From: Methylotenera sp.
GTDB taxonomy: Bacteria > Pseudomonadota > Gammaproteobacteria > Burkholderiales > Methylophilaceae
Assembly: GCA_031538905.1 (NCBI GenBank)
Contig: JAVKLV010000001.1
Location: forward strand, 7,737-71,736
DNA: 64,000 nucleotides
Direction: 5' to 3'
The number at the start of each line of letters is the position of its first letter. Within the stretch, counting starts at the first letter, position 1. The notes beneath the pieces are model-generated. The model was given only the letters and a program-made list of their open reading frames with translations. It searched no databases and was not told the origin of the DNA. This document shows positions 23 to 15,121 of the stretch, piece after piece. A program made the translations under genes and the position numbers.

Positions 23-1216
23 ATGCAAAATGTAACCATACTGGGTGCCACTGGCACTATCGGACTACAAACGCTGGAGGTTATTTCTCAACACGCAGAG
101 CGCTTTAAAGTCTTTGCTTTAGCTGCCAATAATAATGTTAACTCAATGCAGGCTTTATGCTGCACTTATCAACCTCAGTACGCTGTGATGTTGCAAGAGT
201 CTGCAGCTAAAGACTTGAGTGCGGAGTTAAAAAGCCTTGGTTTGAATACGATTGTACTCTCTGGCGCTACAGCGCTAAATGAGATTTCATCACATGAACA
301 AGTGGATATTGTGATGGCGGCAATTGTGGGCGCTGCTGGCTTGCATCCAGCCATTGCGGCAGCAAAAGCTGGTAAACGTATATTGTTAGCCAATAAAGAA
401 ACACTGGTGATGGCGGGTGACTTATTTATGCAAGCCGTGATTGATGGGGGTGCAACATTATTACCTATTGATAGTGAGCATAATGCTATTTTTCAAGTGA
501 TGCCACACAACCATGCTCAATACTCAATCCATGCACCATTAAGTCAGTTAGGCGTAAAGCGTGTGTTGCTGACCGCGTCCGGAGGCCCATTTCGTCACTC
601 AGATTTAAGCACACTCAACACGGTGACTAAAGCGCAAGCGCTCAATCATCCTAATTGGGTGATGGGGCCTAAAATTACCATAGATTCAGCCACAATGATG
701 AATAAAGGCTTAGAGGTGATTGAGGCGCATTGGTTGTTTAAGGCTGCACCCAAACAAATAGAGGTGCTTATTCATCCACAAAGTGTTGTTCATTCAATGG
801 TGGAGTATATTGATGGCAGTGTGCTTGCCCAGTTAGGCAATCCAGATATGCGTATTCCAATCGCTTATGGCTTGGCTTATCCAGAAAGAATGATGAGCGG
901 AGTGAGTAGCTTAGACTTGTTGACAACTGCCCGATTAGATTTTTTTCCACCAGATATGACGCGCTTTCCTTGCTTGCGCATTGCTTATGATGCCTTGAAT
1001 ATGGGCGGAACAGCGCCGGCAATCTTGAATGCCGCGAATGAAGTGGCTGTCGAAGCTTTTTTAGCTGAAAAAATCGGATTTATGGATATTCCTAAAATAA
1101 TTGAAAATATATTACTGTGTGCACATATTGTGCAAGTTGAATCAATTGAGCAGCTGGAGGCTGTTGACGCTGAGGCTAGGCTAGAAGCACAGGTGCAGGT
1201 TAAGGCAATATGCTAA
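23..1216 (+). CDS. dxr: 1-deoxy-D-xylulose-5-phosphate reductoisomerase
   Basis: 397-aa ORF. It has the N-terminal NADPH motif ILGATGTIG plus LANKE, IDSEHNA and NHPNWVMG...IDSATMMNKGLEVIEA, all typical of Dxr. Confidence 0.96.
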   Translation: MQNVTILGATGTIGLQTLEVISQHAERFKVFALAANNNVNSMQALCCTYQPQYAVMLQESAAKDLSAELKSLGLNTIVLSGATALNEISSHEQVDIVMAAIVGAAGLHPAIAAAKAGKRILLANKETLVMAGDLFMQAVIDGGATLLPIDSEHNAIFQVMPHNHAQYSIHAPLSQLGVKRVLLTASGGPFRHSDLSTLNTVTKAQALNHPNWVMGPKITIDSATMMNKGLEVIEAHWLFKAAPKQIEVLIHPQSVVHSMVEYIDGSVLAQLGNPDMRIPIAYGLAYPERMMSGVSSLDLLTTARLDFFPPDMTRFPCLRIAYDALNMGGTAPAILNAANEVAVEAFLAEKIGFMDIPKIIENILLCAHIVQVESIEQLEAVDAEARLEAQVQVKAIC

Positions 1217-2598
1217 ACGCACTCGCTTTTATATTTACCATGGGCATTTTGGTGCTTGTCCACGAGTATGGTCATTTTCAGGTGGCCAAGTGGTGTGGCG
1301 TTAAAGTATTGAGGTTTTCTGTTGGCTTTGGTAAGCCTCTGTGGCGCAAATTTTTTGGAAAAGACAAAACAGAGTTCATCCTTGCTGCGATTCCGCTCGG
1401 AGGCTATGTCAAAATGTTAGACGAGAAAGCCCTTGCTTTAGAGGGTCGGGGTGAGTTTTCAAGCTCAGCGCATTCTGAACAAGAGCTCATGCGCGCTTTT
1501 AATCGTCAGTCGGTAGCTAAGCGTATTGCTATTGTGCTTGCAGGGCCGCTTGCTAACTTATTGTTCGCCATTGCTTTATATTGGATATTATTTGTAGCAG
1601 GCATTGTGGGCGTGAAGCCTATTTTGGGTGAGGTGATTGATGAGAGCCCTGCTCAGGTTTCAGGTTTTATCTCTGGCGAAGAAATCAAAAAAATTAATGG
1701 AAAACCGGCTGAATCTTGGCAAGAAGTGAGCTGGATGCTGTTAAATCAATCTTTAAAAAATAAAAACCTAAAAATAGAAACGCTGAATTCAAAAAATGAG
1801 ATTAGAGAGCGCCATTTAGATTTAACAAAAATTGATTTAGATGACACGACGAAAAATGTGTTAACAATGGCTGGCTTTACAATGTATCAGCCAAGTGGCT
1901 TGGCGATTGTGGGTGAGGTGGTTAAAGGGGGCTCGGCAGATGTAGCGGGCATTAAAAAAAACGATTTAATTTTGATGGTGAATCATCAGCAAGTTGCGCT
2001 TTTAGATGACTTTGTAGACGAGGTTAAGCGTCATCCAAATCAACCGTTAGAGGTTTTGATTGAGCGAAATTTAAAGCAGATTACTTTAAATTTAACTCCA
2101 GAAAAGACGAGTCAGTATGGTCAAGAAGTAGGGCGTGTTGGCATCGCTTTTAAAGTGCCCCAAAAAGAGCTGGACAAGATTTTTATAACCAGCCGCTACG
2201 CTGTATCTGATGCTTTTTTAAAAGCTGTCGAAAAAACATGGGAAACTTCAATTTTTACGCTCAAAATGTTAGGAGAAATGATCACGGGAGAAGCCTCTTT
2301 TCGTAACGTGAGTGGCCCTATTACCATCGCAAGCTATGCTGGGCAAAGCGCACAAATAAGCTTTGAAGCTCTGGGTGCGTTTTTGGCGGCGATAAGTATT
2401 AGCATTGGTGTGCTTAATCTATTGCCTATACCAGTGTTAGATGGCGGCTATTTGATGTATTATGTTGTAGAAATTTTTACTGGAAAAGCAGCTTCTGATT
2501 TAGCTGTAAATATAGGGCAAAAAATAGGTATTTTTTTGCTGGCTTGTATGATGGCTTTGGCTTTTTATAACGACATTCACAGGCTCATCGCAGCTTAA
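1210..2598 (+). CDS. rseP: RIP zinc metalloprotease RseP (site-2 protease)
   Basis: 462 aa, with the ATG overlapping the dxr stop by 7 nt. It has an HEYGHF zinc motif in the first TM helix, a central PDZ-like region, and the C-terminal [12 protein letters not shown] motif. Confidence 0.95.
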
Positions 2599-2618
2599 AT
2601 TGCAACACTTTTAAAAAA

Positions 2619-4931
2619 ATGAAACATTTAAAAAATATCATTAAAACTCTAAAACTTAAGTTCTGTGCAATGTGTGTTTTAGGATTGTTTGCAAATTCAG
2701 CTTTTGCGTTAGAGCCTTTTATTGTAAAAGATATTAGTGTTGAAGGCTTACAGCGCACAGAGGCGGGCACGGTATTCACCTATTTGCCAGTAAAAGTGGG
2801 TGAGATGATGAATGATGAGCTTGCTACGCAAGCCATTAAAGCTTTATATGGCACAGGGTTTTTTAAAGATGTGCGCATTGAGGTAGAAGATGAAGTTTTG
2901 ATTGTTACGGTGCAAGAGCGCGCTTCTATTGCAAAAATTGACTTAAGTGGTAATAAATCTTTTCCCACAGAAAAGATGAAAGAGGGATTAAAACAAATTG
3001 GTATTTCTGAAGGTGAAATTTTTGATCGCTCAAAATTAGATAAGGCTGAGCAAGAGATTAAGCGCCAATATCTGTCGCAGGGTAAGTATGGTGCAACTGT
3101 TAAGGCTGTCGAGTCTTTGTTAGATCAAAATCGAGTTGCTGTGCGCTTTGATATTGAAGAGGGGTCGGTTTCAAAAATTCGTAGTATTAACATTATAGGC
3201 AATCAAGCTTTTAGTACCGATGATTTGAAAGCTGAATTTTTGCTTACAACACCTAATTGGATGAGTTGGTGGAATAAAGATGATCAGTATTCCAAGCAAA
3301 AGTTGAATGCAGACCTTGAGACGCTGCGTTCATTTTATTTAAACCAAGGTTATTTAGAGTTTAATATCGACTCAACGCAAGTTTCAATTACGCCTGATAA
3401 AAAAGACATTTACATTACGGTGAATGTCACAGAAGGCCAAAAATACACTATTTCAGAAATCAAGCTGGCTGGCGAAACTATTTTGGGTAAAGATGAAATT
3501 GAGCGACTCATCCCCATTAAAAAAGGCGACACCTTCAGCCGCGAGCAAATTACACAAGCAAGCAAGGCTATTAGTGACCGATTAAGTAATGATGGGTATG
3601 CGTTTTCAAACGTTAATCCTGTGCCAGAGATAAACAAAGAGCAGCATACTGCGGCATTTACTTTTTATATTGATCCTGGAAGACGCATTTATATTAGGCG
3701 CATCAATATCGCTGGCAACACCAGAACACGTGATGAAGTCGTGCGCCGTGAGGTAAGGCAGCTGGAGTCAGCATGGTATGCTTCAGATAAAATCAATCGT
3801 TCTAAAGAGCGCTTGATTAGAACTGATTTTTTCTCTGATGTGAATGTTGAAACGCCCAACGTTCCTGGCACGTCAGATCAAGTGGATTTAAACATCAGTG
3901 TTACCGAAAAATCAACTGGCAGCGTGCAGTTTGGCGCGGGTTTATCGAGTAGTGATGGGGTGACGTTTGGCGTGACTGTTAATCAAAATAACTTTTTAGG
4001 CACCGGCAACCAAGTGCGGGCTCAAGTGAATACAGCCAAAGTAAATACTACTTATTCGATGTCGTTTACTGACCCATATTTCACACCAGACGGGGTAAGT
4101 CGCGGCTTTGATTTTTATCGTCGTGATGTTAATACCGACTCGCTCAATGTGGCCTCTTATCGTTCATCATCCTATGGTGGCGGGCTGAGATTTGGTGTTC
4201 CTTTAAATGAGCGTGATGCCGCAAGTTTTGGTTTGGCGGTCGATTTAACTAAAATTGATTTAAATTCAGCAAGTCCGGTGCAATATCGAGATTTTTGTGG
4301 AAACTCAACAGGCTGTAGCAGCAATTCTTTTGTGGCCTCGGTGGGCTGGGCACATGATACGCGCGACAGTGTGATATATACCAATGATGGTGTATTGCAG
4401 AAAATTAGCGCTGAGCTTTCTTTGCCAGTGATGGATTTGAACTACTACAGGCTTGACTATAAGCAAAGTTGGTTTAAGGGTGTATATAAAGACGTAACTT
4501 TGATGCTGAACGGCGAAATAGGCTATGCCAACTCTTACGGTAACAAAAATTATCCTTTCTTTAAAAATTACTACATGGGCGGCGTAAACAGTGTGCGTGG
4601 TTATCAAGAGAGTTCATTGGGTTCGCGGGCAGTAGATCCTAGTAGTAATGGTACTTATGCGACTGGTGGTAACAAGCGCCTGCTGGGTAATGCTGAGTTT
4701 TTTACGCCCATTCCAGGGTTAAAAGATTCTAAGCAGTTTAGGTTAAGTGCCTTTGTAGACGGCGGCAATGTCTATGACGGTAACTACGACTTGAATGAGT
4801 TGCGCTACTCTACAGGGCTGGGTGTGAGCTGGATATCGCCCTTTGGTCCCATCAAGCTTATTTATGCTAAACCAATCAATAATAAAACTGGCGATCTTGT
4901 GCAGAGTGTTCAGTTTCAGCTTGGCCAATAA
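2619..4931 (+). CDS. bamA: outer membrane protein assembly factor BamA
   Basis: 770 aa with a signal peptide (…ANSAFALE), repeated POTRA-like modules, and a C-terminal beta-barrel with alternating aromatic pattern. It sits at the canonical position between rseP and skp. Confidence 0.95.
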
Positions 4932-5048
4932 GATTTAATCAACATTCAGTGTTAAATTTCAATTGTATTTGAGTGATTGTCGGGCATGAAAAATGAGTAT
5001 GCTGTGTCATAATAATAGCTGTTATAAAGTATTTTTTAGGGGATTAAA

Positions 5049-5552
5049 TTGAGTCATTTATTGAAAAAATTAGTTTTAGCTGGTTTTATGAGTACTTCTT
5101 TGCTTGCTGCAGCTGCTGAAGTTAAAGTCGCTTACGTGCAGGTTGATAAAATTTTACAAGAAGCGCCGCAAACAGCTGAAAGTGGTAAGAAGTTGGAAAA
5201 AGAATTTAGTCCTCGCACTCAAGAGTTAGATCGTATGGCAAGGCAGATTAAAGATTTAGAAAACGTGCTTGATAAAGATGGCTCAACCATGAACGATGCT
5301 GACCGTCGCGGAAAAGAGCGTGATATGCAAAATATCAAAACTGAATTTCAACGTAAACAACGCGAGTTACGCGAAGATATTAACTTACGTAAAAATGAAG
5401 AGCTGGTTGGCTTGCAAGAGCGCATCAATAAGGCTGTGCAGTCAGTTGCCAAAGCCGAAAACTATGATTTAGTGATGTACAGTGGCGTTGCTTATGCTGC
5501 AGATAAAATTGATATTACTGATAAGATATTGAAATCTTTAGGTAAAAAATAG
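5049..5552 (+). CDS. skp: periplasmic chaperone Skp (OmpH family)
   Basis: 167 aa with a signal peptide (…SLLAAAAEV) and a Lys/Glu/Arg-rich coiled-coil body. Only the TTG at 5049 keeps the signal peptide. An AGGGGA RBS lies at 5038-5043. Confidence 0.88.
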   Translation: MSHLLKKLVLAGFMSTSLLAAAAEVKVAYVQVDKILQEAPQTAESGKKLEKEFSPRTQELDRMARQIKDLENVLDKDGSTMNDADRRGKERDMQNIKTEFQRKQRELREDINLRKNEELVGLQERINKAVQSVAKAENYDLVMYSGVAYAADKIDITDKILKSLGKK

Positions 5553-5599
5553 TATTGATTAAAACGCAATATAGCACGATAGGTAATTTTTAAGGCGTT

Positions 5600-6661
5600 G
5601 TGATGAGTAAAAATTACACTCTTAATGATATCGTGCGTATATTAGGTGGTCGTGTTGTAGGTGATGGTGAGATTGAAATTTCTCGAGTTTCATCTCTTGA
5701 TAATGCAACATCAGGTGATATTTGCTTTATTAGTGATGCTAAATATCAGCAAGCACTTAGCATAAGCGCTGCAAGTGCGGTTATATTGCGTGAAAAAGAT
5801 GCCGCATTTGCGGCTATTCCCAAAATTATTGTAGATCAGCCTTATGCCTACTTTGCTAAGTTGGCTGTATTGCTTAACCCTCCTTCATTACCTATTTTAG
5901 GTATCAGTCCTAGTGCAGTGGTAGATGTGAGCGCTCAAATACCCCCCACTTGTAGTGTTGGCGCTTTTGTTGTGATTGGTGCACATGTTGTGCTGGGCGA
6001 GGGTGTGGTAATTGGCAGTGGCTGCTTCATAGAAGATCATGTGACGATTGCTGCTGGTACTAAATTAGAGTCTGGCGTAACGATTAAGCAGCATTGCATT
6101 GTTGGTAAGAATTGCCACCTATTTTCTGGCGTTGTAATTGGTTCAGATGGCTTTGGTTATACTGAAGAAGAGGGACGGTGGTTAAAAATCCCACAACTTG
6201 GTCGTGTCATTATTCATGATAACGTGGATGTTGGTGCAAATACCACCATAGACCGCGGAACGCTTGATGATACTGTGATTGAAGAAGGTGTTAAATTAGA
6301 CAATCTTATTCAAATTGGTCATAACTGTGTGATTGGCGCGCATACAATCATTGCAGCTTGCACGGGGATTGCTGGCAGCGCTAGGCTTGGGCGTCATTGT
6401 AAAATTGGCGGGGCGGCAATGATTCTAGGGCACCTGAGCATTGCTGATCATGTGACGATTTCTCCAGGCAGTATGATTACGCGATCCTTATCTGTTTCTG
6501 ATACTTATACGGCTTTAATGCCCTTTCAAAATCATCGTGCGTGGTTAAATACCGCTGCTAAAATTCGTCACTTAGACAGCTTTGCAGATAAAATTAAAGC
6601 GCTAGAAAGCGCCTTGGCTCTGTTAAAATTAAATCATTCAAGCGCACAAAAAGATGAGTAG
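5600..6661 (+). CDS. lpxD: UDP-3-O-(3-hydroxyacyl)glucosamine N-acyltransferase
   Basis: 353 aa with a long run of hexapeptide (left-handed beta-helix) repeats. It lies between skp and fabZ. The start is either GTG 5600 or ATG 5603. Confidence 0.93.
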
Positions 6662-6718
6662 CACGCATTTAAGTGTGACCACAAAATATCTCTTAATAAA
6701 GAAGTTAATCGAGGCAAT

Positions 6719-7195
6719 ATGACCAATAATATCGAACCCATCAGTATGGATATTTATGAAATACTTGAGCATTTGCCGCATCGTTATCCGTTCGTTCTGA
6801 TTGATCGCGTGATTGACTTAAAACTAGGCACAGAAATCACTGCATTAAAAAATGTAACAATGAATGAGCCATTTTTCCCGGGCCATTTTCCTCATCATCC
6901 GGTGATGCCTGGTGTGTTGATTGTAGAGGCGATGGCTCAAGCTGCGGCGGTGTTGTCTTTTAAAACAATGGGGCAAAAGCCAAGCGACGACTCGGTTTAC
7001 TATTTTGCGGGCATTGATAGCGCGCGTTTTAAAAAACCAGTTTCTCCGGGCGATCAACTGATTTTAAATGTAAAAATTGACCGTATACTCAAAGGTATTT
7101 GGAAGTACATTGGCGTTGCAACGGTGGATGGTGTTGTGGTGGCTGAAGCTCAAATGATGTGTATCCTAAAAGAGATAGAAAAAAAAGAGAAGTAA
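6719..7195 (+). CDS. fabZ: 3-hydroxyacyl-ACP dehydratase FabZ
   Basis: 158 aa with the hot-dog active-site motif [23 protein letters not shown]. Confidence 0.96.
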
Positions 7196-7198
7196 GCG

Positions 7199-7981
7199 AT
7201 GCAAACAACAAAAATTCACGCGACGGCAATCATTGATGCGCGCGCAGAGATTGATTCTAGTGTTGAAATAGGGCCTTATAGCGTTATTGGTCCTCACGTT
7301 AAAGTTGATGCGGGCACTCGTATTGCAGGTCATGTAACGATTAACGGCCCCACAACAATTGGTAAAAATAACCAAATTTTTCAGTATTCTTCTTTAGGCG
7401 AGGCCCCGCAAGATAAAAAATATAAAGGCGAGCCGACCTTGCTTGAAATTGGTGACAATAATACCATTCGTGAGTTTTGTACGTTCAATCGAGGCACTTC
7501 GCAAGATAAGGGCGTGACTAAAATGGGTAACAATAATTGGGTGATGGCTTATGTGCATATTGCACATGACTGTCAAATTGGTCATCACACGATTTTTGCC
7601 AATAACTCTTCGTTAGCCGGTCACGTGGATATTGATGACTATGCAATTCTTGGTGGCTTCACTCTTATTCATCAGTTTTGTAAAGTGGGTGCGCACGTTA
7701 TTACCGCGGTTGGGTCTGTTGTATTTAAAGATATTCCTCCTTATGTGACTGCTGCAGGGTACGATGCCAAGCCTCATGGCATTAACGCCGAAGGCTTAAA
7801 GCGTAGAGGCTTTAGTGCGGAAAGTATTTTGCAAATTAAGCGTGCTTATAAGGCTTTGTATCGTAATGGTTTAAGCTTAGAAGAAGCGAAAATAGAGCTG
7901 ACAGAGATGTGCTTAACAGCGCCAGAAATTGGCTTGCTGACTGATTTTTTCAATAAATCCACGCGCGGTATTGTGCGCTAA
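7199..7981 (+). CDS. lpxA: acyl-ACP--UDP-N-acetylglucosamine O-acyltransferase
   Basis: 260 aa with hexapeptide repeats followed by a helical C-terminal domain. It sits immediately after fabZ. Confidence 0.95.
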   Translation: MQTTKIHATAIIDARAEIDSSVEIGPYSVIGPHVKVDAGTRIAGHVTINGPTTIGKNNQIFQYSSLGEAPQDKKYKGEPTLLEIGDNNTIREFCTFNRGTSQDKGVTKMGNNNWVMAYVHIAHDCQIGHHTIFANNSSLAGHVDIDDYAILGGFTLIHQFCKVGAHVITAVGSVVFKDIPPYVTAAGYDAKPHGINAEGLKRRGFSAESILQIKRAYKALYRNGLSLEEAKIELTEMCLTAPEIGLLTDFFNKSTRGIVR

Positions 7982-7998
7982 CTAATTTATCGATTGTT

Positions 7999-9132
7999 AT
8001 GATTAAAATTGGCATTGTGGCTGGAGAAGCTTCTGGTGATTTGCTTGGCAGCCACCTTATGCAAGCCTTAAAAGCCAAGCGTTCAGATATTGAGTTTATT
8101 GGTATTGCTGGGCCTAAAATGATGCACGAGGGCGCGCGGTCAATGTTTCCGATTGAGCGACTCTCTATACGTGGGTATGTTGAGGTGATTAAACACCTTT
8201 ATGGCTTACTTAAATTACGCCGTCAATTATTTAATTATCTAATTTCTCAAAAAATAGATTTGTTTATTGGCATTGATGCGCCTGATTTTAATTTTGGCTT
8301 AGAGCGAAAATTAAAAAACAAAGGCATTAAAACCATTCATTATGTGAGTCCTTCTATATGGGCTTGGCGAAAAAACCGTATTTATAAAATTAAACGTTCT
8401 GTTTCACATATGTTGGCTTTATTTCCATTTGAGCCTACTTTGTACCAAAATGCAGGCATTACCACGAGCTATGTAGGGCACCCTTTGGCTGATATATTGC
8501 CGATCGAGCCCAATGTAATTGCTGCGCGTGCGCGCTTGAAGTTAAAGTCAGACAGGCTGGTGGTTGCGATGCTGCCTGGCAGTCGTCAAAGTGAAGTTAA
8601 GCAACACGCAGATTTGTTTTTAAAAACTGCTAAATTGATTTTGGCTGATTATCCTGATGCAGTTTTTTTGTTGCCTTTGGTGACGCGTCAAACGCGACAT
8701 ATTGTTGAATCAATGATATTTCATGAGCCAGATACTTTACCCATTCAAATTTTGTTTGGTCACGCACATGATGCGATGGAGGCTGCAAATGTTGTCATTG
8801 TTGCCTCAGGTACTGCAACGCTTGAGGCTGCGCTACTTAAAAAACCAATGGTCATTACTTATCGCATGAATCGTTTGAGTTGGTATATTCTGAAGTGGAT
8901 GCGTTTGCAGCCCTATGTGGGCTTGCCAAACATTTTGGCACAAAGGTTTGTGGTGCCAGAGCTTTTGCAACATGACGCTACCCCGGAAAAAATAGCTGAA
9001 GCTGCCATGCTGCAAATCAATGATGCAACTCGTCTTACTGAAATCAAAGATGAATTTACAAAAATTCATTATCTTTTACGGCAAAATACAGCCGAAAAAG
9101 CTTCAGATGCAGTACTTTCACACTTTGTTTAA
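7999..9132 (+). CDS. lpxB: lipid-A-disaccharide synthase
   Basis: 377 aa with the N-terminal IVAGEASGDLLG motif. It occupies the lpxA-lpxB-rnhB position. Confidence 0.93.
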   Translation: MIKIGIVAGEASGDLLGSHLMQALKAKRSDIEFIGIAGPKMMHEGARSMFPIERLSIRGYVEVIKHLYGLLKLRRQLFNYLISQKIDLFIGIDAPDFNFGLERKLKNKGIKTIHYVSPSIWAWRKNRIYKIKRSVSHMLALFPFEPTLYQNAGITTSYVGHPLADILPIEPNVIAARARLKLKSDRLVVAMLPGSRQSEVKQHADLFLKTAKLILADYPDAVFLLPLVTRQTRHIVESMIFHEPDTLPIQILFGHAHDAMEAANVVIVASGTATLEAALLKKPMVITYRMNRLSWYILKWMRLQPYVGLPNILAQRFVVPELLQHDATPEKIAEAAMLQINDATRLTEIKDEFTKIHYLLRQNTAEKASDAVLSHFV

Positions 9133-9149
9133 TTAACACATAGGCTTAA

Positions 9150-9767
9150 TTGATGTCGCGGCTTATTTGTGGTGTAGACGAGGCGGGACGCGGACCTTTG
9201 GCAGGTTCTGTTTATGCTGCATCGGTTATTTTAAACCCTGCTCATCCCATACTGGGTTTGGCAGACTCTAAAAAACTCTCTGAAAAGAAACGTGACTTAT
9301 TAAGCATTCAAATTAAACAGCACGCACTTGCCTGGGCTATAGCCAGTGTGAGCGCCCAAGAAATTGATCAAATCAATATTTTGCAAGCCAGCATGCTTGC
9401 TATGAAACGTGCGATAGAGCATATGCAGACGCAGTTTGATATCAGCCAAAACATAGGTGAGATCTTGGTTCAGGTTGATGGTAATCGATGTCCTCAAATT
9501 GCTTTTCCGTGTGAGGCAATTGTCAAGGGAGATAGCAAAGTGCAAGCAATTTCAGCCGCTTCTATTCTAGCTAAAGTGGCGCGAGATGCCGAGTTGTATA
9601 TACTCGATAAAGATTATCCTCAATATGGTTTTGCGCAACATAAAGGCTACCCAACAGCCATGCATTTGTCGGCACTTAAGAAGCATGGCGTTTGCCCTTG
9701 GCATCGCATGACTTATGCGCCCGTTAAGCGTCTCTGTGAGGCAAATATAGTGATGCTAGGTCGATGA
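9150..9767 (+). CDS. rnhB: ribonuclease HII
   Basis: 205 aa with the catalytic [12 protein letters not shown] motif. The start is either TTG 9150 or ATG 9153. Confidence 0.95.
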
Positions 9768-11020: not shown

Positions 11021-12010
11021 TTAGTTTGTGATTTTATAAAATCTATTCTCGAGCGTTTTGCCATTTTTTATATCATCAAGTTTGCCATCAATCGATTCAC
11101 TCAGTGAAACCAGTCTCTCATCGGGAAGAGGGTGTGTTTTAAATAACAGGGCAACACTATTGTCATTTGAGTTTACTTGCCCCAAAATTTGCAGCACTTC
11201 AGTTAAGCCAAAGGGTTCATAGCCTGCCCGTGTTGCGTAGCTTAGCCCTAATCTGTCGGCTTCAAATTCAGCTTCTTTGTCTAAGCCTCTAGCACTAATC
11301 TCAGCGCCACTACCAATCGCTTTGCTAATTATTTTATTGTCATTACCTAATTTTTTACTCAATAAACTTGCGCCAAAATTGAGGAGCTGCTGTTTTTGTA
11401 AAACTTTGAGTTGATGCTTGGCCACAATGTGAGCAATTTCATGGCCTAAAACACCAGCCAATTGTGCTTCGTTACTCATTTTTCGGTATAAACCTTTGGT
11501 GATCATGACATAGCCGCCTGCTGCTGAAAACGCGTTTAAGTCTTCACTTTCAATCACCCCAAAATGCCAAGGTAAGTCAGGTCTTTCCGATTGCGAGGCC
11601 ACCCAGCGCCCCACAGAATTTACGTATTTTTGCAAGTTTTCATCTTTTACTAAAGGTGCGGCACCAAGTAAATTGCCTGTAATTTCACGGCCCAACGCAA
11701 TTTCTTCTTCTTTACTTGGGTTTTTCCAGTTAATCGCTGTTTGTGGCTTTTGAGAGGTGCCGGCTGTGGTATCAGTTGAATCAATTTGGGGATTATTTAC
11801 AGTTGTGGCTTTTGAGTTTTCATTTGCGGATGTTGATATTGGCGCATTGTTTTGACCAGTTCGTTGCTTAATTTGTTTTTTTACAGCGTTTTTGAGTGCA
11901 GAGTTTAAATCTAAAGCCATGCTATGGTGGCTAAAAATAAGCAACAAGCTCATTAGCAAGTTTGAAACGATGATATTTTTTTTGAGCTTATGGGTGTGTA
12001 TAACGTTCAT
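11021..12010 (-). CDS. secreted M48-family zinc metalloprotease
   Basis: 329 aa with a signal peptide (…LLIFSHHSMA/LD) and a Q/T/N/S-rich low-complexity linker. It has the HEIAH zinc motif (GVLGHEIAHIVAKH) and a downstream EFEADRLG third-ligand region. A 7-nt gap separates it from the upstream SH3b gene. Confidence 0.8.
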   Translation of the reverse strand: MNVIHTHKLKKNIIVSNLLMSLLLIFSHHSMALDLNSALKNAVKKQIKQRTGQNNAPISTSANENSKATTVNNPQIDSTDTTAGTSQKPQTAINWKNPSKEEEIALGREITGNLLGAAPLVKDENLQKYVNSVGRWVASQSERPDLPWHFGVIESEDLNAFSAAGGYVMITKGLYRKMSNEAQLAGVLGHEIAHIVAKHQLKVLQKQQLLNFGASLLSKKLGNDNKIISKAIGSGAEISARGLDKEAEFEADRLGLSYATRAGYEPFGLTEVLQILGQVNSNDNSVALLFKTHPLPDERLVSLSESIDGKLDDIKNGKTLENRFYKITN

Positions 12011-12017
12011 TTTGCGC

Positions 12018-12521
12018 CTATTTTGCTGTTTTTAAGTTTGAAAACGAAATGGCCTTTAAGTTGACTGCGTCAGCAAATTGGCGGCCTTGCTCTGGGGTTT
12101 GCGTATAACTCTCGAGCAAAGTCACTTCGGAGGCATTAAATTTAGCCGCTTTAAGCTCTTCTGCACTTAGGCCTCGAATCCCCGTGGTTGAAACCACTTG
12201 CCCTGTGCCTGCGCGCCCATTTGCAACGGCGAGTACACCGCCCGCTTGGTTGCCCGAGCTTGAACTGCCGCGTTTAACTGAAAGCAATCTCACCCAGCCA
12301 GTATTCGATTTAGATTTAACTTGTAGCCAAGCACCTTGTTTACTAAGGATTTCAATATTATCACCACGATTTAAAGTACCCGATATTTTTGCATCCGCAA
12401 AAGGCTCAATCCGCAGGCTGTCATTTTTAATGACGCTGCCCATCTCTGCTGCTAAGCTGACATTCATCAGTAGAAATGCAGTCAAACTTGTTGCAAAAAG
12501 TGTGATTTTTAATTTTTTCAT
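12018..12521 (-). CDS. secreted SH3b (bacterial SH3-like) domain protein
   Basis: 167 aa with a signal peptide (…MNVSLAAE). An SH3_3-like segment (LRIEPFADAKISGTLNRGDNIEILSKQGAWLQVKSKSNTGWVRLLSV) is followed by a Gly/Ser-rich linker and an unassigned ~75-aa C-terminal part. Confidence 0.7.
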   Translation of the reverse strand: MKKLKITLFATSLTAFLLMNVSLAAEMGSVIKNDSLRIEPFADAKISGTLNRGDNIEILSKQGAWLQVKSKSNTGWVRLLSVKRGSSSSGNQAGGVLAVANGRAGTGQVVSTTGIRGLSAEELKAAKFNASEVTLLESYTQTPEQGRQFADAVNLKAISFSNLKTAK

Positions 12522-12558
12522 CTGATTTAAGGCTTTAAGTTGATAAGGTAAATGAAGT

Positions 12559-14241
12559 TTATTTTAAAGCATCTAGTTTAATAATGGCTTGTGCAAAAAT
12601 GCTTCGCCATTGTCTGTCCATAGGCACTTCGGTATTTAAAATGCCAATATGTTGAGCATAACGCACGGTGGTGTTACTTGGCATACCAGTATGATGGAGT
12701 AGTTGTGTTAATTGCGCGCCGAGCTGCTCTGCATCAGCTTTTATTGTATCAGCTTGAGTTGCATCATGATGAGAATAAGCCCAGCTAACAATTACCATGT
12801 CGCCAAACAAGCCCCAAACACCACTTTGCGTGCCTTTTAACACCTCAACCGAGGCTGCAGTAGTACATTTTTTTACGATTTTTTGCCGTAGCGTTTTGAG
12901 CATTGCATCGCTTAGCGAAAGCTGGCTTTCTATGAGTATAGGCATCATCAAAATAGCCTCACCTTTTTTACCAGATTCAATGTCATGGGCGAGGAGTCGT
13001 TGCATTGCACGGTCATTTGCCAGGGCATATATTTTAGCAATACTAAAATAGACAATCGCCCAACTAATAGGGCCTGTAATGTCGAGGTAAGTGTTGGTGA
13101 AATTGAGCGCAAGATAAGAAAGGGCGAGTAACGCAATTTGACTACTACTAAATACGCGCGTTACCTTGTCTCTATCAACATTACGGTAAAATGCAAGAGA
13201 GGTAAGCCAAATGAGCAGTAAACTCATCAGAATATAAGGTGTTTTGCCACGCCATACTTGTAAGTAATCTAGATGTTTAACGTTGTCAATCGTAGTGGCT
13301 AAAATCTCAACACCAGGAAACTCTTTTGCCATGGCGGTGGCTTTAATATCAAAAAGTGATGGGGCGGTAGAGCCAATAATAACGATCTTGTTAGTAAATT
13401 CATTGGCTGGGCGCTTTTTAACCTTGTTAGCCATGTCGCTGTAAACATCGCTAAAGCTCACAAATGGATAGGTAAATGGCTTGCCGCGCCAGTTGATGAG
13501 CATGTTTTCTGGCAGTGGCGCTAAATTTTCTTTTGAAAAGTTACCCACAATCAAGGGTAATGAGGGCAGTAACCAGCCATGTTCATCGTGCCAAAGTTTA
13601 TATTCACGGGCAATGCCATCAGCATCGGTGTAAATGTTATGTGTGCCTAAATGTTGAGAGTTGAGTGCGGCTTCAAAATGGGGTAATACAATTGCAATGG
13701 GCTTTTGAGGCTGACTTGTTACTTCTTTCGTGCTTGGTTTAATGCCAGGAATCATCTCTGCTGTGATTTTGCTTAAATGGTCGCTGGCTTGAGATAAGCG
13801 CAACATCGGAAAAAAAGTATTGTTTGTGCCAGCAATCACATCATTAAAATAAGCATCGCTGTCTGGGTTATATAAATCAGCATCGCTAAAAAGAATGTCA
13901 AATACGATTGCTTTAGGTTTCTGCATTTCAATGTTTTCAACAAGCTCACCCAACACTTGGCGCGGCCAAGGCCAACGGCCATACTCTTTTGCCATTGCGC
14001 TTAATGAGGCTTCGTTGATGTCTACAATCACAATATCGGGATCGACTTTAGGCACAACGATACGTTTTTTTACCATGAGATCAAAGGCACGATCGCGCAT
14101 ATTTTGCCCAACGTGAAAAAGGTTTGCATCAAGCAAAACCATGACACTTAGCAAAGCGCAAAGGTAAATGTAGAAATTATTACTAAGCTTGCGAGTAACG
14201 TCAGCGAGCCATTGGTTAATGAGTAGTTTGATTTTAATCAT
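12559..14241 (-). CDS. CHASE2-domain membrane sensor with unassigned C-terminal cytoplasmic domain
   Basis: 560 aa with an N-terminal TM helix and a ~300-aa extracytoplasmic region carrying the CHASE2 hallmark GRWPWPR (aa 88-94) and DILFSD. Three TM helices follow, then a ~150-aa tail with no GGDEF, cyclase, His-kinase or Ser/Thr-kinase motif that I can see. Confidence 0.8.
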   Translation of the reverse strand: MIKIKLLINQWLADVTRKLSNNFYIYLCALLSVMVLLDANLFHVGQNMRDRAFDLMVKKRIVVPKVDPDIVIVDINEASLSAMAKEYGRWPWPRQVLGELVENIEMQKPKAIVFDILFSDADLYNPDSDAYFNDVIAGTNNTFFPMLRLSQASDHLSKITAEMIPGIKPSTKEVTSQPQKPIAIVLPHFEAALNSQHLGTHNIYTDADGIAREYKLWHDEHGWLLPSLPLIVGNFSKENLAPLPENMLINWRGKPFTYPFVSFSDVYSDMANKVKKRPANEFTNKIVIIGSTAPSLFDIKATAMAKEFPGVEILATTIDNVKHLDYLQVWRGKTPYILMSLLLIWLTSLAFYRNVDRDKVTRVFSSSQIALLALSYLALNFTNTYLDITGPISWAIVYFSIAKIYALANDRAMQRLLAHDIESGKKGEAILMMPILIESQLSLSDAMLKTLRQKIVKKCTTAASVEVLKGTQSGVWGLFGDMVIVSWAYSHHDATQADTIKADAEQLGAQLTQLLHHTGMPSNTTVRYAQHIGILNTEVPMDRQWRSIFAQAIIKLDALK

Positions 14242-14252
14242 AAGTACTTTTG

Positions 14253-14366
14253 TTGAGTGTAGATGCCAGCTTGAGATAAGTTATTTTGAGTCTTGTGGCT
14301 TAAAACCAAGCGTTTAATCTCGGCTTTTTATTTGAGTAATCTGATAAAGCTTTGAGATTTTTTGAG
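14253..14366 (+). promoter_or_regulatory. cluster of six same-orientation TTGAG(T/A) motifs in the region upstream of the CHASE2 operon
   Basis: TTGAG occurs at 14253, 14271, 14286, 14332, 14352 and 14362, all on the + strand. They lie in the 175-bp gap between the ygjP-like stop and the CHASE2 start codon. Confidence 0.5.
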
Positions 14367-14416
14367 TATAACATTCACTCCCCCAGTGCCCAGTCATTTT
14401 AATTGCAGTGCTTTTG

Positions 14417-15121
14417 TTAAAATCGATGCAATGCTGGCGATAAAGCTTTTAATGCCCTTTCTGCGAGCTTGTAGTCAGGATAAATGCTGGAAACGGTTGC
14501 CCAAAATTGAGCAGAATGATTTAACTCTTTAATATGTGCAAGCTCGTGACAAACAACATAATTGATAATATGAGGCGGGGCTTGGATTAAGCGCCAGTTT
14601 AGTCGAATCTCTTTTTTAGAGTTACAGCTGCCCCAGCGAGTGCTGGCGTTAGATAAAGTGAGCGATGTAAATGAAACGCCTAACTTTGTTGAAAATAACT
14701 CTAAGCGCCTTGTAAAATCAGATATCGCTTGTTTTTTATACCATTGCACAAGTTTTTTGCTGACTAAATTAGGCTCGTGGTTTGGCATGGCAAGCTGCAA
14801 GATGCCAGGTTGATATTCTACCGATTTTGATCGTACGTTATGCTCTAAAATGAGTGTATGGGGGTGACCTAAAAACAATAATTGTTCGCCATGTTGCCAT
14901 CTCATTTCTGGCATTTTGTTGGCTGAAACTGAAGCTATTTTTTGCAAAATCCAGCTGGATTTTTTAAAAATAATCTCATTGAGCTGGTTTTCTAGAAGGT
15001 GTTTTGGCGCATAAATAATCAGCCCTTTTTGCGTGACTTTTAACCCAGCCGTGCGGCGCGCGCGGCGCTCTAATTGATAATGCAATTGATATCCAGAGGG
15101 TAGGGTGATGATATGTTGCAT
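14417..15121 (-). CDS. YgjP-like (DUF45) metal-dependent hydrolase
   Basis: 234 aa with the C-terminal HELAHIKELNHS zinc motif characteristic of the YgjP/DUF45 family. Confidence 0.8.
   Translation of the reverse strand: MQHIITLPSGYQLHYQLERRARRTAGLKVTQKGLIIYAPKHLLENQLNEIIFKKSSWILQKIASVSANKMPEMRWQHGEQLLFLGHPHTLILEHNVRSKSVEYQPGILQLAMPNHEPNLVSKKLVQWYKKQAISDFTRRLELFSTKLGVSFTSLTLSNASTRWGSCNSKKEIRLNWRLIQAPPHIINYVVCHELAHIKELNHSAQFWATVSSIYPDYKLAERALKALSPALHRF

What the first reader, a model, noticed from the sequence alone, without database searches (positions are those of the whole stretch)
11021..14241. Candidate novel envelope-sensing module: CHASE2 sensor + secreted SH3b protein + secreted M48 protease in one tight operon
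**Seen in the sequence.**
- Three co-directional minus-strand genes are separated by only 37 nt and 7 nt.
- The block forms the only clearly non-housekeeping island in the first 20 kb. It lies between a PerM-like transporter and the ygjP/plsC/gmhB/glyQS block.
- All three products are predicted to expose their main domains to the periplasm. The CHASE2 domain lies between TM1 and a three-helix bundle, and the SH3b protein and the M48 protease (HEIAH) each have a cleavable signal peptide.

**Established knowledge.**
- CHASE2 is an extracytoplasmic sensor domain with no known ligand.
- It is normally fused to cyclase, GGDEF or kinase outputs.
- M48 proteases (HtpX, BepA and LoiP types) act on envelope proteins.
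- SH3b domains commonly bind peptidoglycan or peptides.

**Inference.**
- The trio may form a proteolysis-coupled sensing circuit. For example, the protease could process the SH3b protein or a cell-wall-derived ligand, and the product could be read by CHASE2.
- I am not aware of any characterised system with this composition.
Basis: partly seen in the sequence, partly recalled or inferred. Interest (0 to 1): 0.7.

Follow-up and report, generated by a model that had tools for sequence, protein, structure and literature searches.

The report
CHASE2 receptor with SH3 adaptor and protease
A membrane sensor of unknown ligand (CHASE2) is encoded here with two secreted partners, an SH3 adaptor and a zinc protease. 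The same three-gene unit recurs in dozens of bacterial species, which gives a concrete, testable lead on what CHASE2 receptors respond to.

Summary
Three minus-strand genes, CHASE2 (12559-14241), SH3_3 (12018-12521) and Peptidase_M48 (11021-12010), lie 37 and 7 nt apart in a Methylotenera-like chromosome.

The adjacency is not strain-specific. Of 72 evaluable species-level loci holding a related CHASE2 gene, 55 carry the full trio. Eleven more carry an SH3-type partner: two are SH3-M48 fusions, five are SH3-caspase fusions and four are cut by a contig end. Flanking genes differ between lineages, gene order is sometimes permuted, and in cultured relatives the genes overlap by 4 nt.

- The CHASE2 protein has a folded cytoplasmic C-terminal domain of about 135 aa with no family match. 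A sister clade with the same partners carries a genuine class III nucleotide cyclase at that position, so this domain is probably a decayed, non-catalytic cyclase.
- The most conserved element of the module is an 18-residue peptide after the SH3 domain (GRxGTGxVVxTTGIRGL). It is retained in every partner variant.
- The protease is interchangeable (M48 or caspase) and is catalytically dead in some lineages.

I read the trio as an uncharacterised, accessory-protein-dependent CHASE2 signalling module. The mechanism is inferred, not shown. No paper describing it was found.

The parts
12559..14241 (-). Gene for the CHASE2 membrane protein (560 aa).
   Evidence: ORF. Pfam CHASE2 E=1.6e-48. Full-length orthologues at 73-79% identity occur in Methylotenera, and homologues at 30-65% identity occur in many lineages.
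14119..14175 (-). TM1 (aa 23-41). The N-terminus is predicted to be cytoplasmic.
   Evidence: Hydropathy scan; AF2 helix 2-42; coordinates.
13210..14145 (-). Periplasmic CHASE2 domain (aa 33-344). It carries the invariant GRWPWPR, VFDILFSDxD and GSTAPSLFD motifs.
   Evidence: Pfam match. Invariant columns in A1 and A2. Mean pairwise identity within the clade is 60%.
12985..13245 (-). Three transmembrane helices (aa 333-419) that return the chain to the cytoplasm.
   Evidence: AF2 helices 333-352, 357-382 and 389-419; sequence shown.
12562..12969 (-). Cytoplasmic C-terminal alpha/beta domain (aa 425-560). It has no Pfam or PDB sequence match and is probably a decayed, non-catalytic class III cyclase domain.
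   Evidence: No Pfam or PDB sequence hit. AF2 model of the domain alone: pLDDT 82, pTM 0.80, ferredoxin-like beta-alpha-beta-beta-alpha-beta order. Foldseek gives only weak hits, which include class III cyclases. hhalign to the cyclase domains of sister-clade proteins gives E=8e-4, and 3.9e-5 through an intermediate group. Invariant residues within the clade are Q472, G474, W476, W487, W545 and R546. Mean identity is only 31%.
12018..12521 (-). Gene for the secreted SH3b adaptor protein (167 aa).
   Evidence: ORF. Pfam SH3_3 E=1.6e-7. Found next to the CHASE2 gene in 66 of 72 evaluable loci.
12450..12521 (-). Signal peptide of the SH3 protein (aa 1-24, SLA|AE).
   Evidence: Read from the sequence; hydrophobic segment at aa 6-24.
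12288..12419 (-). SH3b domain (aa 35-78).
   Evidence: Pfam SH3_3. Conserved eP..DAk...G.Wlqvk...GWvr pattern in 60 sequences.
12168..12218 (-). Invariant post-SH3 peptide GRAGTGQVVSTTGIRGL (aa 102-118), the most conserved element of the module.
   Evidence: Mean pairwise identity is 82% over aa 101-118, against 53% for the SH3 domain. The peptide is retained in SH3-M48 and SH3-caspase fusion proteins.
12021..12167 (-). C-terminal tail of the SH3 protein (aa 119-167). It is presumed helical, with a conserved fA..g.L pattern.
   Evidence: Conservation profile. The tail is retained between SH3 and M48 in the fusion proteins of L055 and L063. The structure was not modelled.
11021..12010 (-). Gene for the secreted M48 zinc metalloprotease (329 aa).
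   Evidence: ORF. Pfam Peptidase_M48 E=4.1e-31. Best solved relatives are 3c37 and the protease domain of BepA.
11915..12010 (-). Signal peptide of the protease (aa 1-32, SMA|LD). There is no lipobox cysteine.
   Evidence: Read from the sequence.
11717..11914 (-). Low-complexity Q/T/N/S-rich linker (aa 33-98), not conserved.
   Evidence: Sequence; mean identity 25%.
11096..11635 (-). M48 catalytic domain (aa 126-305), with HEIAH (11429-11443), EFEADR (11252-11269) and THPLP (11123-11137).
   Evidence: Pfam match. The motifs are conserved in 56 orthologues. Coordinates.
14242..14416 (-). The 175-nt region upstream of the CHASE2 gene, the likely promoter region of the operon.
   Evidence: This is the only sizeable intergenic gap in the block. 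One sigma-70-like match runs from 14392 to 14365 on the minus strand, but such sites are no more frequent here than in shuffled sequence, so this evidence is weak.

Best explanation
The three genes encode one envelope signalling module. An inner-membrane CHASE2 receptor works with two dedicated periplasmic partners.

Proposed mechanism (inferred, not shown):
- The secreted SH3b protein is the receptor's adaptor or tethered ligand. It docks on the periplasmic CHASE2 domain through its invariant GRxGTGxVVxTTGIRGL peptide, and possibly binds cell-wall peptide through its SH3b domain.
- The soluble BepA-like M48 protease binds this adaptor and either degrades it or processes a peptide or protein cue that it delivers.
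- The state of the periplasmic complex is passed through the three C-terminal transmembrane helices to the cytoplasmic domain.

In the sister clade that domain is an intact class III nucleotide cyclase, so the output there is cAMP or cGMP. In the clade of this window it is a fast-evolving, non-catalytic alpha/beta domain, probably a decayed cyclase. The output here must therefore be a protein-protein interaction, or be largely vestigial.

What is shown: the composition, the topology, the conservation of the unit, the fusions, the swap of protease type, the cyclase in the sister clade, and the lack of any cyclase signature here.

What is inferred: who binds whom, what is cleaved, and the direction of information flow.
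For: - Domains and topology.
- The unit is conserved while its flanks vary. 55 of 72 evaluable loci have CHASE2, SH3 and M48 in the same order and on the same strand, and 66 of 72 have an SH3-type partner.
- The test from the SH3 side agrees. Among four SH3 homologues looked up, three sit next to a CHASE2 gene, one of them in the permuted order SH3-M48-CHASE2.
- Neighbouring genes overlap by 4 nt in Methylotenera mobilis 13 and Sulfuricella denitrificans skB26.
- Gene fusions join the complete SH3 protein to M48 (L055, L063), and join SH3 plus the peptide to a periplasmic caspase-DUF4384 protein (L048, L065, L077, L080, L082).
- The post-SH3 peptide is the most conserved segment of the module, at 82% mean identity.
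- The catalytic motifs of M48 are conserved in 56 orthologues.
- The sister clade combines CHASE2 with Guanylate_cyc and keeps the same partners (17 complete trios).
- Precedents exist for CHASE2 receptors that depend on accessory envelope proteins and on protein signals: NsrA with uL2 for the S. meliloti CHASE2 cyclases (PMC13001267), and LysM-FecR proteins next to CHASE2 kinases (PMC5192318).
Against: - No interaction, cleavage or transcript was measured, and no multimer model could be run.
- In L055 and L063 the fused M48 has lost its HExxH histidines (REIAH, REIAQ). In L087 the caspase-like partner has lost its His/Cys dyad. Proteolysis is therefore dispensable in some versions.
- In the window's clade the cytoplasmic domain has no catalytic signature and only 31% mean identity, against 60-82% for the periplasmic parts. 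This fits a mainly periplasmic function at least as well as inward signalling.
- The link between the C-terminal domain and cyclases is weak: hhalign probability 25%, Foldseek E>1e-3 and TM about 0.4.
- Six related CHASE2 genes have no partner next to them.
Confidence: 0.45

Rival explanations
1. Receptor-controlled protease. The CHASE2 protein is mainly a membrane platform. It recruits and gates an SH3-tagged periplasmic protease that acts on envelope substrates such as misassembled outer-membrane proteins, lipoproteins or wall-linked proteins. The output is proteolysis in the periplasm, and the cytoplasmic domain is dispensable or carries an inside-out input.
For: - The periplasmic parts are far better conserved than the cytoplasmic domain: CHASE2 60%, M48 68% and the peptide 82%, against 31% for the C-terminal domain.
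- The trio is retained after the cyclase signature is lost.
- The protease type is swapped while SH3 plus the peptide is kept, as expected of a targeting tag.
- The protease domain resembles that of BepA.
Against: - The sister clade keeps an apparently intact cyclase with the same partners, which implies signalling into the cell.
- Lineages with a dead M48 or caspase partner still keep the module.
- No candidate substrate gene is conserved nearby.
Confidence: 0.25
2. Regulated proteolysis of the receptor itself. M48 acts as a site-1 protease that trims the CHASE2 ectodomain, with SH3 as adaptor or inhibitor, as in RseA/DegS or in DegP/DegQ processing of PdeC. This switches or releases the cytoplasmic domain.
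For: - Periplasmic proteolysis of a sensor ectodomain that controls a second-messenger enzyme has a precedent in E. coli PdeC (PMC5897775, found).
- The protease and the receptor are always co-encoded.
- An RseP homologue is present in the window at 1210-2598, but it is a housekeeping gene.
Against: - The cytoplasmic domain is not an anti-sigma or DNA-binding domain.
- Versions with a dead protease exist.
- The invariant element lies in the SH3 protein, not in an exposed CHASE2 loop.
- No site-2 protease is linked to the trio in other genomes.
Confidence: 0.1
3. A conflict or defence (abortive-infection-like) system, by analogy with caspase-CHASE2 proteins described in prokaryotic conflict systems.
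For: - Caspase-CHASE2 fusions have been discussed in that context (PMC8195603; PMC3501461).
- A caspase-type partner occurs in one subclade and matches a PADLOC caspase model.
- One SH3+M48 pair lies next to toxin-antitoxin genes (L086).
Against: - None of the three window proteins matches PADLOC.
- The trio sits among core housekeeping genes with normal composition.
- It is inherited with a conserved PerM neighbour across Methylophilaceae.
- The proteases are secreted to the periplasm rather than cytoplasmic.
Confidence: 0.05
4. Three functionally unrelated neighbours that happen to be packed tightly.
For: Short intergenic gaps are common in compact bacterial genomes, and no transcript data are available.
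Against: - The trio is conserved across many orders although the flanks are unrelated.
- Gene order is permuted with the same components.
- Fusion proteins occur.
- Start and stop codons overlap in relatives.
Confidence: 0.02

Closest known systems
Sinorhizobium meliloti CHASE2 adenylate/guanylate cyclases CyaD1, CyaD2 and CyaK with the outer-membrane protein NsrA
   Same: A CHASE2 ectodomain is coupled to a class III cyclase, as in the sister clade of this module. Signalling needs an accessory envelope protein, and the cue is a protein (plant uL2), not a small molecule (PMC13001267).
   Different: The accessory factor is a beta-barrel outer-membrane protein, not an SH3b adaptor plus protease. 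No protease is known in that pathway. The window's protein lacks a recognisable cyclase.
Burkholderia 'BiofilmReg' operon and P. aeruginosa PA4035/PA4036 (LysM-FecR periplasmic protein next to a CHASE2 histidine kinase)
   Same: A CHASE2 receptor is co-encoded with a secreted partner that carries a peptidoglycan-binding-type domain, and the arrangement is conserved across Burkholderiales (PMC5192318).
   Different: The partner is LysM+FecR, not SH3b plus the invariant peptide. The output is a kinase with a response regulator. There is no protease. The fourth gene there is DUF4136.
Periplasmic M48 proteases of E. coli (BepA, LoiP, YcaL) and the Geobacter M48 structure 3c37
   Same: The catalytic domain and zinc motifs are the same. 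The best sequence matches to solved structures are 3c37 (E=6.5e-28) and BepA (E about 3e-26).
   Different: There is no TPR domain, and the NCBIfam BepA score is 118 against a cut-off of 570. There is no lipobox, and the LoiP score is 40 against 365. The gene is dedicated to a CHASE2/SH3 operon.
YfiBNR (TpbB) tripartite system of Pseudomonas and E. coli (from my own knowledge, not tested here)
   Same: The logic is similar. An inner-membrane second-messenger enzyme has a periplasmic domain held by a small secreted protein, and the availability of that protein is set by a third, cell-wall-associated envelope protein.
   Different: The sensor domain is unrelated (PAS-like rather than CHASE2). 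The output is c-di-GMP. The third component sequesters its partner rather than cleaving it.
E. coli PdeC (CSS-domain phosphodiesterase processed by DegP/DegQ)
   Same: Periplasmic proteolysis is coupled to a transmembrane second-messenger enzyme (PMC5897775, listed).
   Different: The proteases are general housekeeping enzymes and are not co-encoded. The sensor domain and the output are different.
Caspase-CHASE2 fusion proteins of cyanobacteria and EACC2-caspase systems
   Same: CHASE2 is associated with a caspase-fold protease (PMC3501461 and PMC8195603).
   Different: In those proteins the caspase is cytoplasmic and lies in the same polypeptide. In the related variants found here the caspase is a separate secreted protein that carries the SH3 domain plus the invariant peptide.

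Membership tests
CHASE2 receptors (PF05226) | A match to the CHASE2 profile above Pfam's gathering score. | tested here: met
   166 bits against a cut-off of 26.3, residues 33-344.
CHASE2 receptors (PF05226) | An extracytoplasmic location between one N-terminal TM helix and three C-terminal TM helices. | tested here: met
   Hydropathy scan and AF2 helices 2-42, 333-352, 357-382 and 389-419. The topology is predicted, not measured.
Class III nucleotide cyclases (PF00211, Guanylate_cyc) | A match to the cyclase profile in the cytoplasmic domain. | tested here: not met
   There is no hit even at E<=10 in the window protein or in 31 diverse relatives. Sister-clade proteins score 100-114 bits.
Class III nucleotide cyclases (PF00211, Guanylate_cyc) | Conserved metal-binding aspartates and transition-state Asn/Arg. 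| tested here: not met
   Strand 1 reads AILMMPILIES, with no FxDIxGFT-type Asp. The Asp of LFGD varies (D/N/T) among orthologues. The invariant residues are Q472, G474, W476, W487, W545 and R546 instead.
Class III nucleotide cyclases (PF00211, Guanylate_cyc) | The cyclase-homology fold (ferredoxin-like beta-alpha-beta-beta-alpha-beta palm) and detectable remote homology. | tested here: inconclusive
   The AF2 model has the right order of secondary structure. Foldseek hits to the cyclase Ma1120 cover 140-145 columns with TM 0.40-0.43 but E>1e-3, and generic ferredoxin-like proteins score equally well. hhalign to sister-clade cyclase domains gives E=8e-4 at 25% probability, and 3.9e-5 at 70% through an intermediate group.
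Peptidase family M48 | A profile match plus the HExxH zinc motif and the downstream Glu ligand region. | tested here: met
   108.7 bits against a cut-off of 20.3. HEIAH at aa 190-194, EFEADR at 248-253 and THPLP at 292-296 are conserved in 56 orthologues.
BepA (beta-barrel assembly-enhancing protease) | The NCBIfam equivalog score and a C-terminal TPR domain. | tested here: not met
   118 bits against a cut-off of 570. The match covers only the protease half of the profile (positions 43-250 of 483). There is no TPR hit.
LoiP / YcaL-type M48 lipoproteins | The NCBIfam score and a lipobox cysteine. | tested here: not met
   39.9 bits against a cut-off of 365. The signal peptide ends in SMA|LD with no Cys.
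Bacterial SH3 (SH3_3, PF08239) | A profile match above the gathering score. | tested here: met
   31.9 bits against a cut-off of 27, residues 35-77. The margin is small, but the pattern is conserved in 60 homologues. Peptidoglycan binding was not tested.
Operon (co-transcribed unit) | Same strand, short or overlapping junctions, no internal terminator, and a single transcript. | tested here: inconclusive
   Gaps of 37 and 7 nt, 4-nt overlaps in relatives and no convincing internal terminator on the minus strand. The transcript itself cannot be tested with these tools.
Known anti-phage defence systems (PADLOC) | A match of any component to a defence-system model. | tested here: not met
   None of the three window proteins has a hit.

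The most novel reading that the evidence does not exclude
At least in this large clade, CHASE2 ectodomains are not small-molecule sensors. They are receptors for a dedicated partner protein. The invariant GRxGTGxVVxTTGIRGL peptide that follows an SH3b domain would be the long-sought CHASE2 'ligand', and its presentation would be controlled by an interchangeable periplasmic protease (M48 or caspase). This would define a new class of protease-coupled transmembrane signalling. It feeds cAMP/cGMP synthesis in one clade and a pseudo-cyclase domain in the clade of this window.
Probability: 0.3. Interest if true: 0.8.

Novelty: new variant of a known kind. Interest (0 to 1): 0.6.

Why it matters
CHASE2 was defined in 2003 and occurs in thousands of bacterial cyclases, kinases and c-di-GMP enzymes, yet Pfam still lists its signal as unknown. 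The only worked example, in S. meliloti, points to a protein cue acting through an accessory envelope protein.

A strictly conserved genetic link to an SH3b adaptor with an invariant peptide and to a periplasmic protease gives a specific hypothesis. It also gives the reagents to test it: a binding partner, a candidate interface and a candidate processing enzyme. The cyclase-bearing sister clade has an easily measured output (cAMP).

The module also offers a natural series of cyclase, decayed cyclase, dead protease and swapped protease. This series can be used to ask which parts of such a system are essential.

Tried and rejected
- Sequence search of the CHASE2 protein against PDB found nothing, even at E<=10.
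- Foldseek of the full-length model and of the C-terminal domain alone against PDB gave no hit below E=1e-3. The hits were only generic ferredoxin-like folds and weak cyclase or GGDEF matches. The pseudo-cyclase call therefore rests mainly on position and on weak profile similarity.
- Pfam at E<=10 on 32 diverse family members gave no cyclase, GGDEF or kinase signal in the C-terminal domain.
- NCBIfam has no model for the CHASE2 or SH3 protein.
- I looked for a conserved fourth gene, such as a CRP-like regulator or a substrate. The flanks are unrelated housekeeping genes: YgfZ-like, cyclophilin, ABC transporter, GST, MTHFR and RmuC.
- The defence-system reading was rejected.
- A profile search with the SH3+peptide module of the fusion proteins, meant to find further fused effector types, returned only 62 short stand-alone SH3 proteins or fragments. 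No new architectures came from that search. The context look-ups that followed were informative.
- Literature searches for CHASE2 with M48, SH3 or protease found no description of the trio.
- Promoter and terminator scans were no better than shuffled sequence.
- Some MAG labels among the loci (Smithella, Syntrophaceae, Bordetella parapertussis, Enterobacteriaceae) are probably binning errors. I did not count them as evidence of taxonomic breadth.

Full report
**Observation.** The gaps between them are 37 and 7 nt. Pfam assigns CHASE2 (residues 33-344, E=1.6e-48), SH3_3 (35-77, E=1.6e-7, just above the cut-off) and Peptidase_M48 (126-305, E=4.1e-31). The CHASE2 protein has one N-terminal hydrophobic helix and three more after the CHASE2 domain. 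Both small proteins begin with a typical Sec signal peptide, and neither has a lipobox. The protease carries HEIAH, EFEADR and THPLP. The window comes from a Methylotenera-like genome: orthologues at 73-79% identity are annotated as Methylotenera. Its flanks are housekeeping genes, with dxr-rseP-bamA-skp-lpxD-fabZ-lpxA-lpxB-rnhB-PerM on one side and ygjP-plsC-gmhB-glyS-glyQ-lnt on the other. Base composition is unremarkable.

**Is the adjacency meaningful?** I built a profile from 32 diverse full-length relatives and scanned one genome per species. This gave 80 loci, in which I searched for the two partners with phmmer and then with HMMs.
- Eight loci were uninformative because a contig end cut the CHASE2 gene or the sequence just downstream of it. 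This left 72 evaluable loci.
- 55 have CHASE2, SH3 and M48 in the same order and on the same strand.
- 4 have SH3 followed by a contig end.
- 2 have a single SH3-M48 fusion gene.
- 5 have an SH3-caspase fusion gene.
- 6 have no partner.

The loci come from Methylophilaceae, Gallionellaceae, Sulfuricellaceae, other Nitrosomonadales and Burkholderiales, Chitinimonas, Steroidobacteraceae, Thiohalomonadaceae, Casimicrobiaceae, Vibrio profundi and three Nitrospirales MAGs. A few other labels look like binning errors and were not counted. The genes around the trio differ from lineage to lineage and are unrelated housekeeping genes, so the three genes travel as a self-contained unit. I also started from the SH3 side, using four homologues with long contigs:
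- a cyclase-type CHASE2-SH3-M48 trio;
- the permuted order SH3-M48-CHASE2;
- a CHAT-CHASE2-SH3-pseudocaspase cluster;
- one SH3-M48 pair without CHASE2.

In cultured M. mobilis 13 and Sulfuricella denitrificans skB26 the genes overlap by 4 nt, the usual sign of translational coupling.

After the fourth TM helix the CHASE2 protein continues for about 135 residues. This stretch matches nothing in Pfam, NCBIfam or PDB sequences, and the same holds at E<=10 for 32 diverse relatives. It is nevertheless predicted to fold well. Modelled alone it reaches pLDDT 82 and pTM 0.80, with a beta-alpha-beta-(alpha)-beta-alpha-beta-beta-alpha order. A tree of the CHASE2 domains splits the relatives into three groups:
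- a clade whose members carry a genuine Guanylate_cyc domain at this position (100-114 bits) together with the same SH3 and M48 partners (17 complete trios);
- a 'tiny' clade with the fusion-type partners;
- the 'mid+short' clade that contains the window.

Both the cyclase type and the short type occur in MAGs labelled Gallionella and Sulfuricella, which suggests two paralogous versions. Profile-profile comparison aligns the window's GVWGLFGDMVIVSW with the cyclase core motif LDKFIGDAIMAFWGAP (E=8e-4, probability 25%). A 195-residue intermediate group links the two (E=3.9e-5 to the cyclases, 2.6e-4 to the short form). Foldseek places class III cyclases among the longest alignments, but with E>1e-3 and TM about 0.4, no better than generic ferredoxin-like proteins. 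The metal-binding and transition-state residues of cyclases are absent or variable. The residues that are invariant within the clade are Q472, G474, W476, W487, W545 and R546. I conclude, at about 60% confidence, that this is a decayed, non-catalytic cyclase-homology domain. Whatever its origin, it is not a recognisable enzyme.

**The SH3 protein and its invariant peptide.** An alignment of 60 partner proteins shows the SH3 domain, a Gly/Ser-rich linker, the nearly invariant stretch GRxGTGxVVxTTG(I/V)RGL (window aa 102-118), and then a tail with a conserved fA..g.L pattern. Within the window's clade, mean pairwise identities are as follows:

| Segment | Mean identity |
|---|---|
| Post-SH3 peptide | 82% |
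| M48 catalytic domain | 68% |
| CHASE2 domain | 60% |
| SH3 domain | 53% |
| SH3 protein tail | 44% |
| CHASE2 protein, cytoplasmic domain | 31% |

The peptide is thus the best-conserved element of the whole module. A recognisable version of it (GR...N...G.R) survives in every partner architecture.

**Interchangeable and sometimes dead proteases.**
- In L055 and L063 the entire SH3 protein is fused to an M48 domain whose HExxH has become REIAH or REIAQ.
- In Limnohabitans, Variovorax and a Comamonadaceae MAG, SH3 plus the peptide is fused to a secreted Peptidase_C14 (caspase) domain with an intact SGHG...DACHSG dyad and a DUF4384 domain. An OmpA-like gene is added to the cluster there.
- In L087 the caspase-like partner has lost the dyad.
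- Among stand-alone M48 partners the catalytic motifs are conserved.

The constant features are therefore CHASE2 and SH3 plus the peptide. The protease fold is always present, but its type and even its activity can change.

**Mechanism.** The most economical reading has three parts. The SH3 protein is the dedicated adaptor or ligand of the CHASE2 ectodomain, and the invariant peptide is the contact. The protease binds this adaptor (the fusions argue for physical association) and either controls its level or processes a peptide or protein cue. The state of the periplasmic complex is then transmitted to the cytoplasmic domain, which is a cyclase in the sister clade and a non-catalytic domain here. 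This agrees with the only studied CHASE2 cyclases, which respond to a protein signal through an accessory envelope protein (PMC13001267), and with LysM-FecR partners of CHASE2 kinases (PMC5192318).

The main rival is that information flows the other way, with the CHASE2 protein acting as a membrane platform that gates the protease. The much stronger conservation of the periplasmic parts, and the retention of the trio after the cyclase is lost, favour that view. The intact cyclase in the sister clade and the dead-protease lineages argue against it. Cleavage of the receptor itself, a defence role, and chance adjacency are less likely (see the rival explanations). None of the binding or cleavage steps has been shown. 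Multimer modelling and experiments are needed.

**Comparison with known systems and novelty.** The parts belong to known families: CHASE2, SH3b and M48. The protease is not BepA, LoiP or HtpX by NCBIfam cut-offs. The general idea of a transmembrane second-messenger enzyme governed by small periplasmic partners, or by periplasmic proteolysis, is also known (YfiBNR; PdeC; NsrA with the CyaD/K cyclases). I found no description of a CHASE2-SH3-protease module, of the invariant peptide, or of the pseudo-cyclase form in the searchable literature. The family libraries do not name it either. I rate it a new variant of a known kind. Interest is moderate to high, because it turns the long-open question of what CHASE2 senses into a set of direct experiments.

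Noticed in passing
L048 7508-9979; L065 1548-3362; L077 5244-9572; L080 5307-9563; L082 (Limnohabitans, Variovorax, Comamonadaceae): Variant cluster: an OmpA-like gene, a short CHASE2 gene, and a secreted SH3-peptide-Peptidase_C14(caspase)-DUF4384 fusion with an intact His/Cys dyad. A periplasmic caspase-type protease takes the place of M48.
   Followed up: partly
L055 1727-2869 and L063 4787-5977: The complete SH3 protein is fused to an M48 domain and encoded upstream of CHASE2. The HExxH motif is degraded to REIAH or REIAQ, so this is a pseudo-protease.
   Followed up: partly
L087 1-5397: A CHAT+TPR protein (1031 aa), then CHASE2 (546 aa), then SH3, then a 313-aa caspase-like protein that lacks the catalytic His and Cys (FSGPG, SDTAY). 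This is another architecture of the same theme.
   Followed up: partly
L086 3609-5370: An SH3+M48 pair with no CHASE2 gene next to it. It is preceded by small ORFs and ParE/PemK-type toxin-antitoxin genes. The 131-aa ORF that overlaps the SH3 start does not match the CHASE2 C-terminal domain.
   Followed up: partly
window 23-9767: The trio lies about 3 kb from the classic envelope-biogenesis cluster dxr-rseP-bamA-skp-lpxD-fabZ-lpxA-lpxB-rnhB. This is suggestive for a BepA-like protease, but the flanks are not conserved in other lineages, so it is probably coincidental.
   Followed up: partly
window 14242-15121 compared with L004-L019 and L083: There is a synteny break upstream of the CHASE2 gene. 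Most Methylotenera and Methylophilus genomes have RmuC-ThiS-MoaE-Lon there, whereas this genome has ygjP-plsC-gmhB-glyQS. The PerM neighbour downstream is retained. Some relatives have a PPK2 gene inserted between M48 and PerM.
   Followed up: no
window 11717-11914 (M48 aa 33-98): A 66-residue Q/T/N/S/P-rich low-complexity spacer lies between the signal peptide and the protease domain. It is unconserved in sequence and of unknown role.
   Followed up: no
L011, L013, L040, L064, L073 (record titles): Contigs labelled Smithella, Syntrophaceae, Bordetella parapertussis or Enterobacteriaceae carry trios that group with Methylophilaceae or other betaproteobacterial versions in the CHASE2-domain tree. 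L011, L013 and L040 are 57-60% identical to the window protein. These are probably MAG binning errors.
   Followed up: no
L036 compared with L042: L036 (Gallionellaceae) has the CHASE2 gene but no SH3 or M48 gene. Its downstream genes are the same ones that follow the complete trio in L042, which suggests a recent deletion of the two partner genes.
   Followed up: no
window 2501-3500: The lowest G+C content in the first 24 kb (0.363) falls inside the bamA gene. It was not examined.
   Followed up: no
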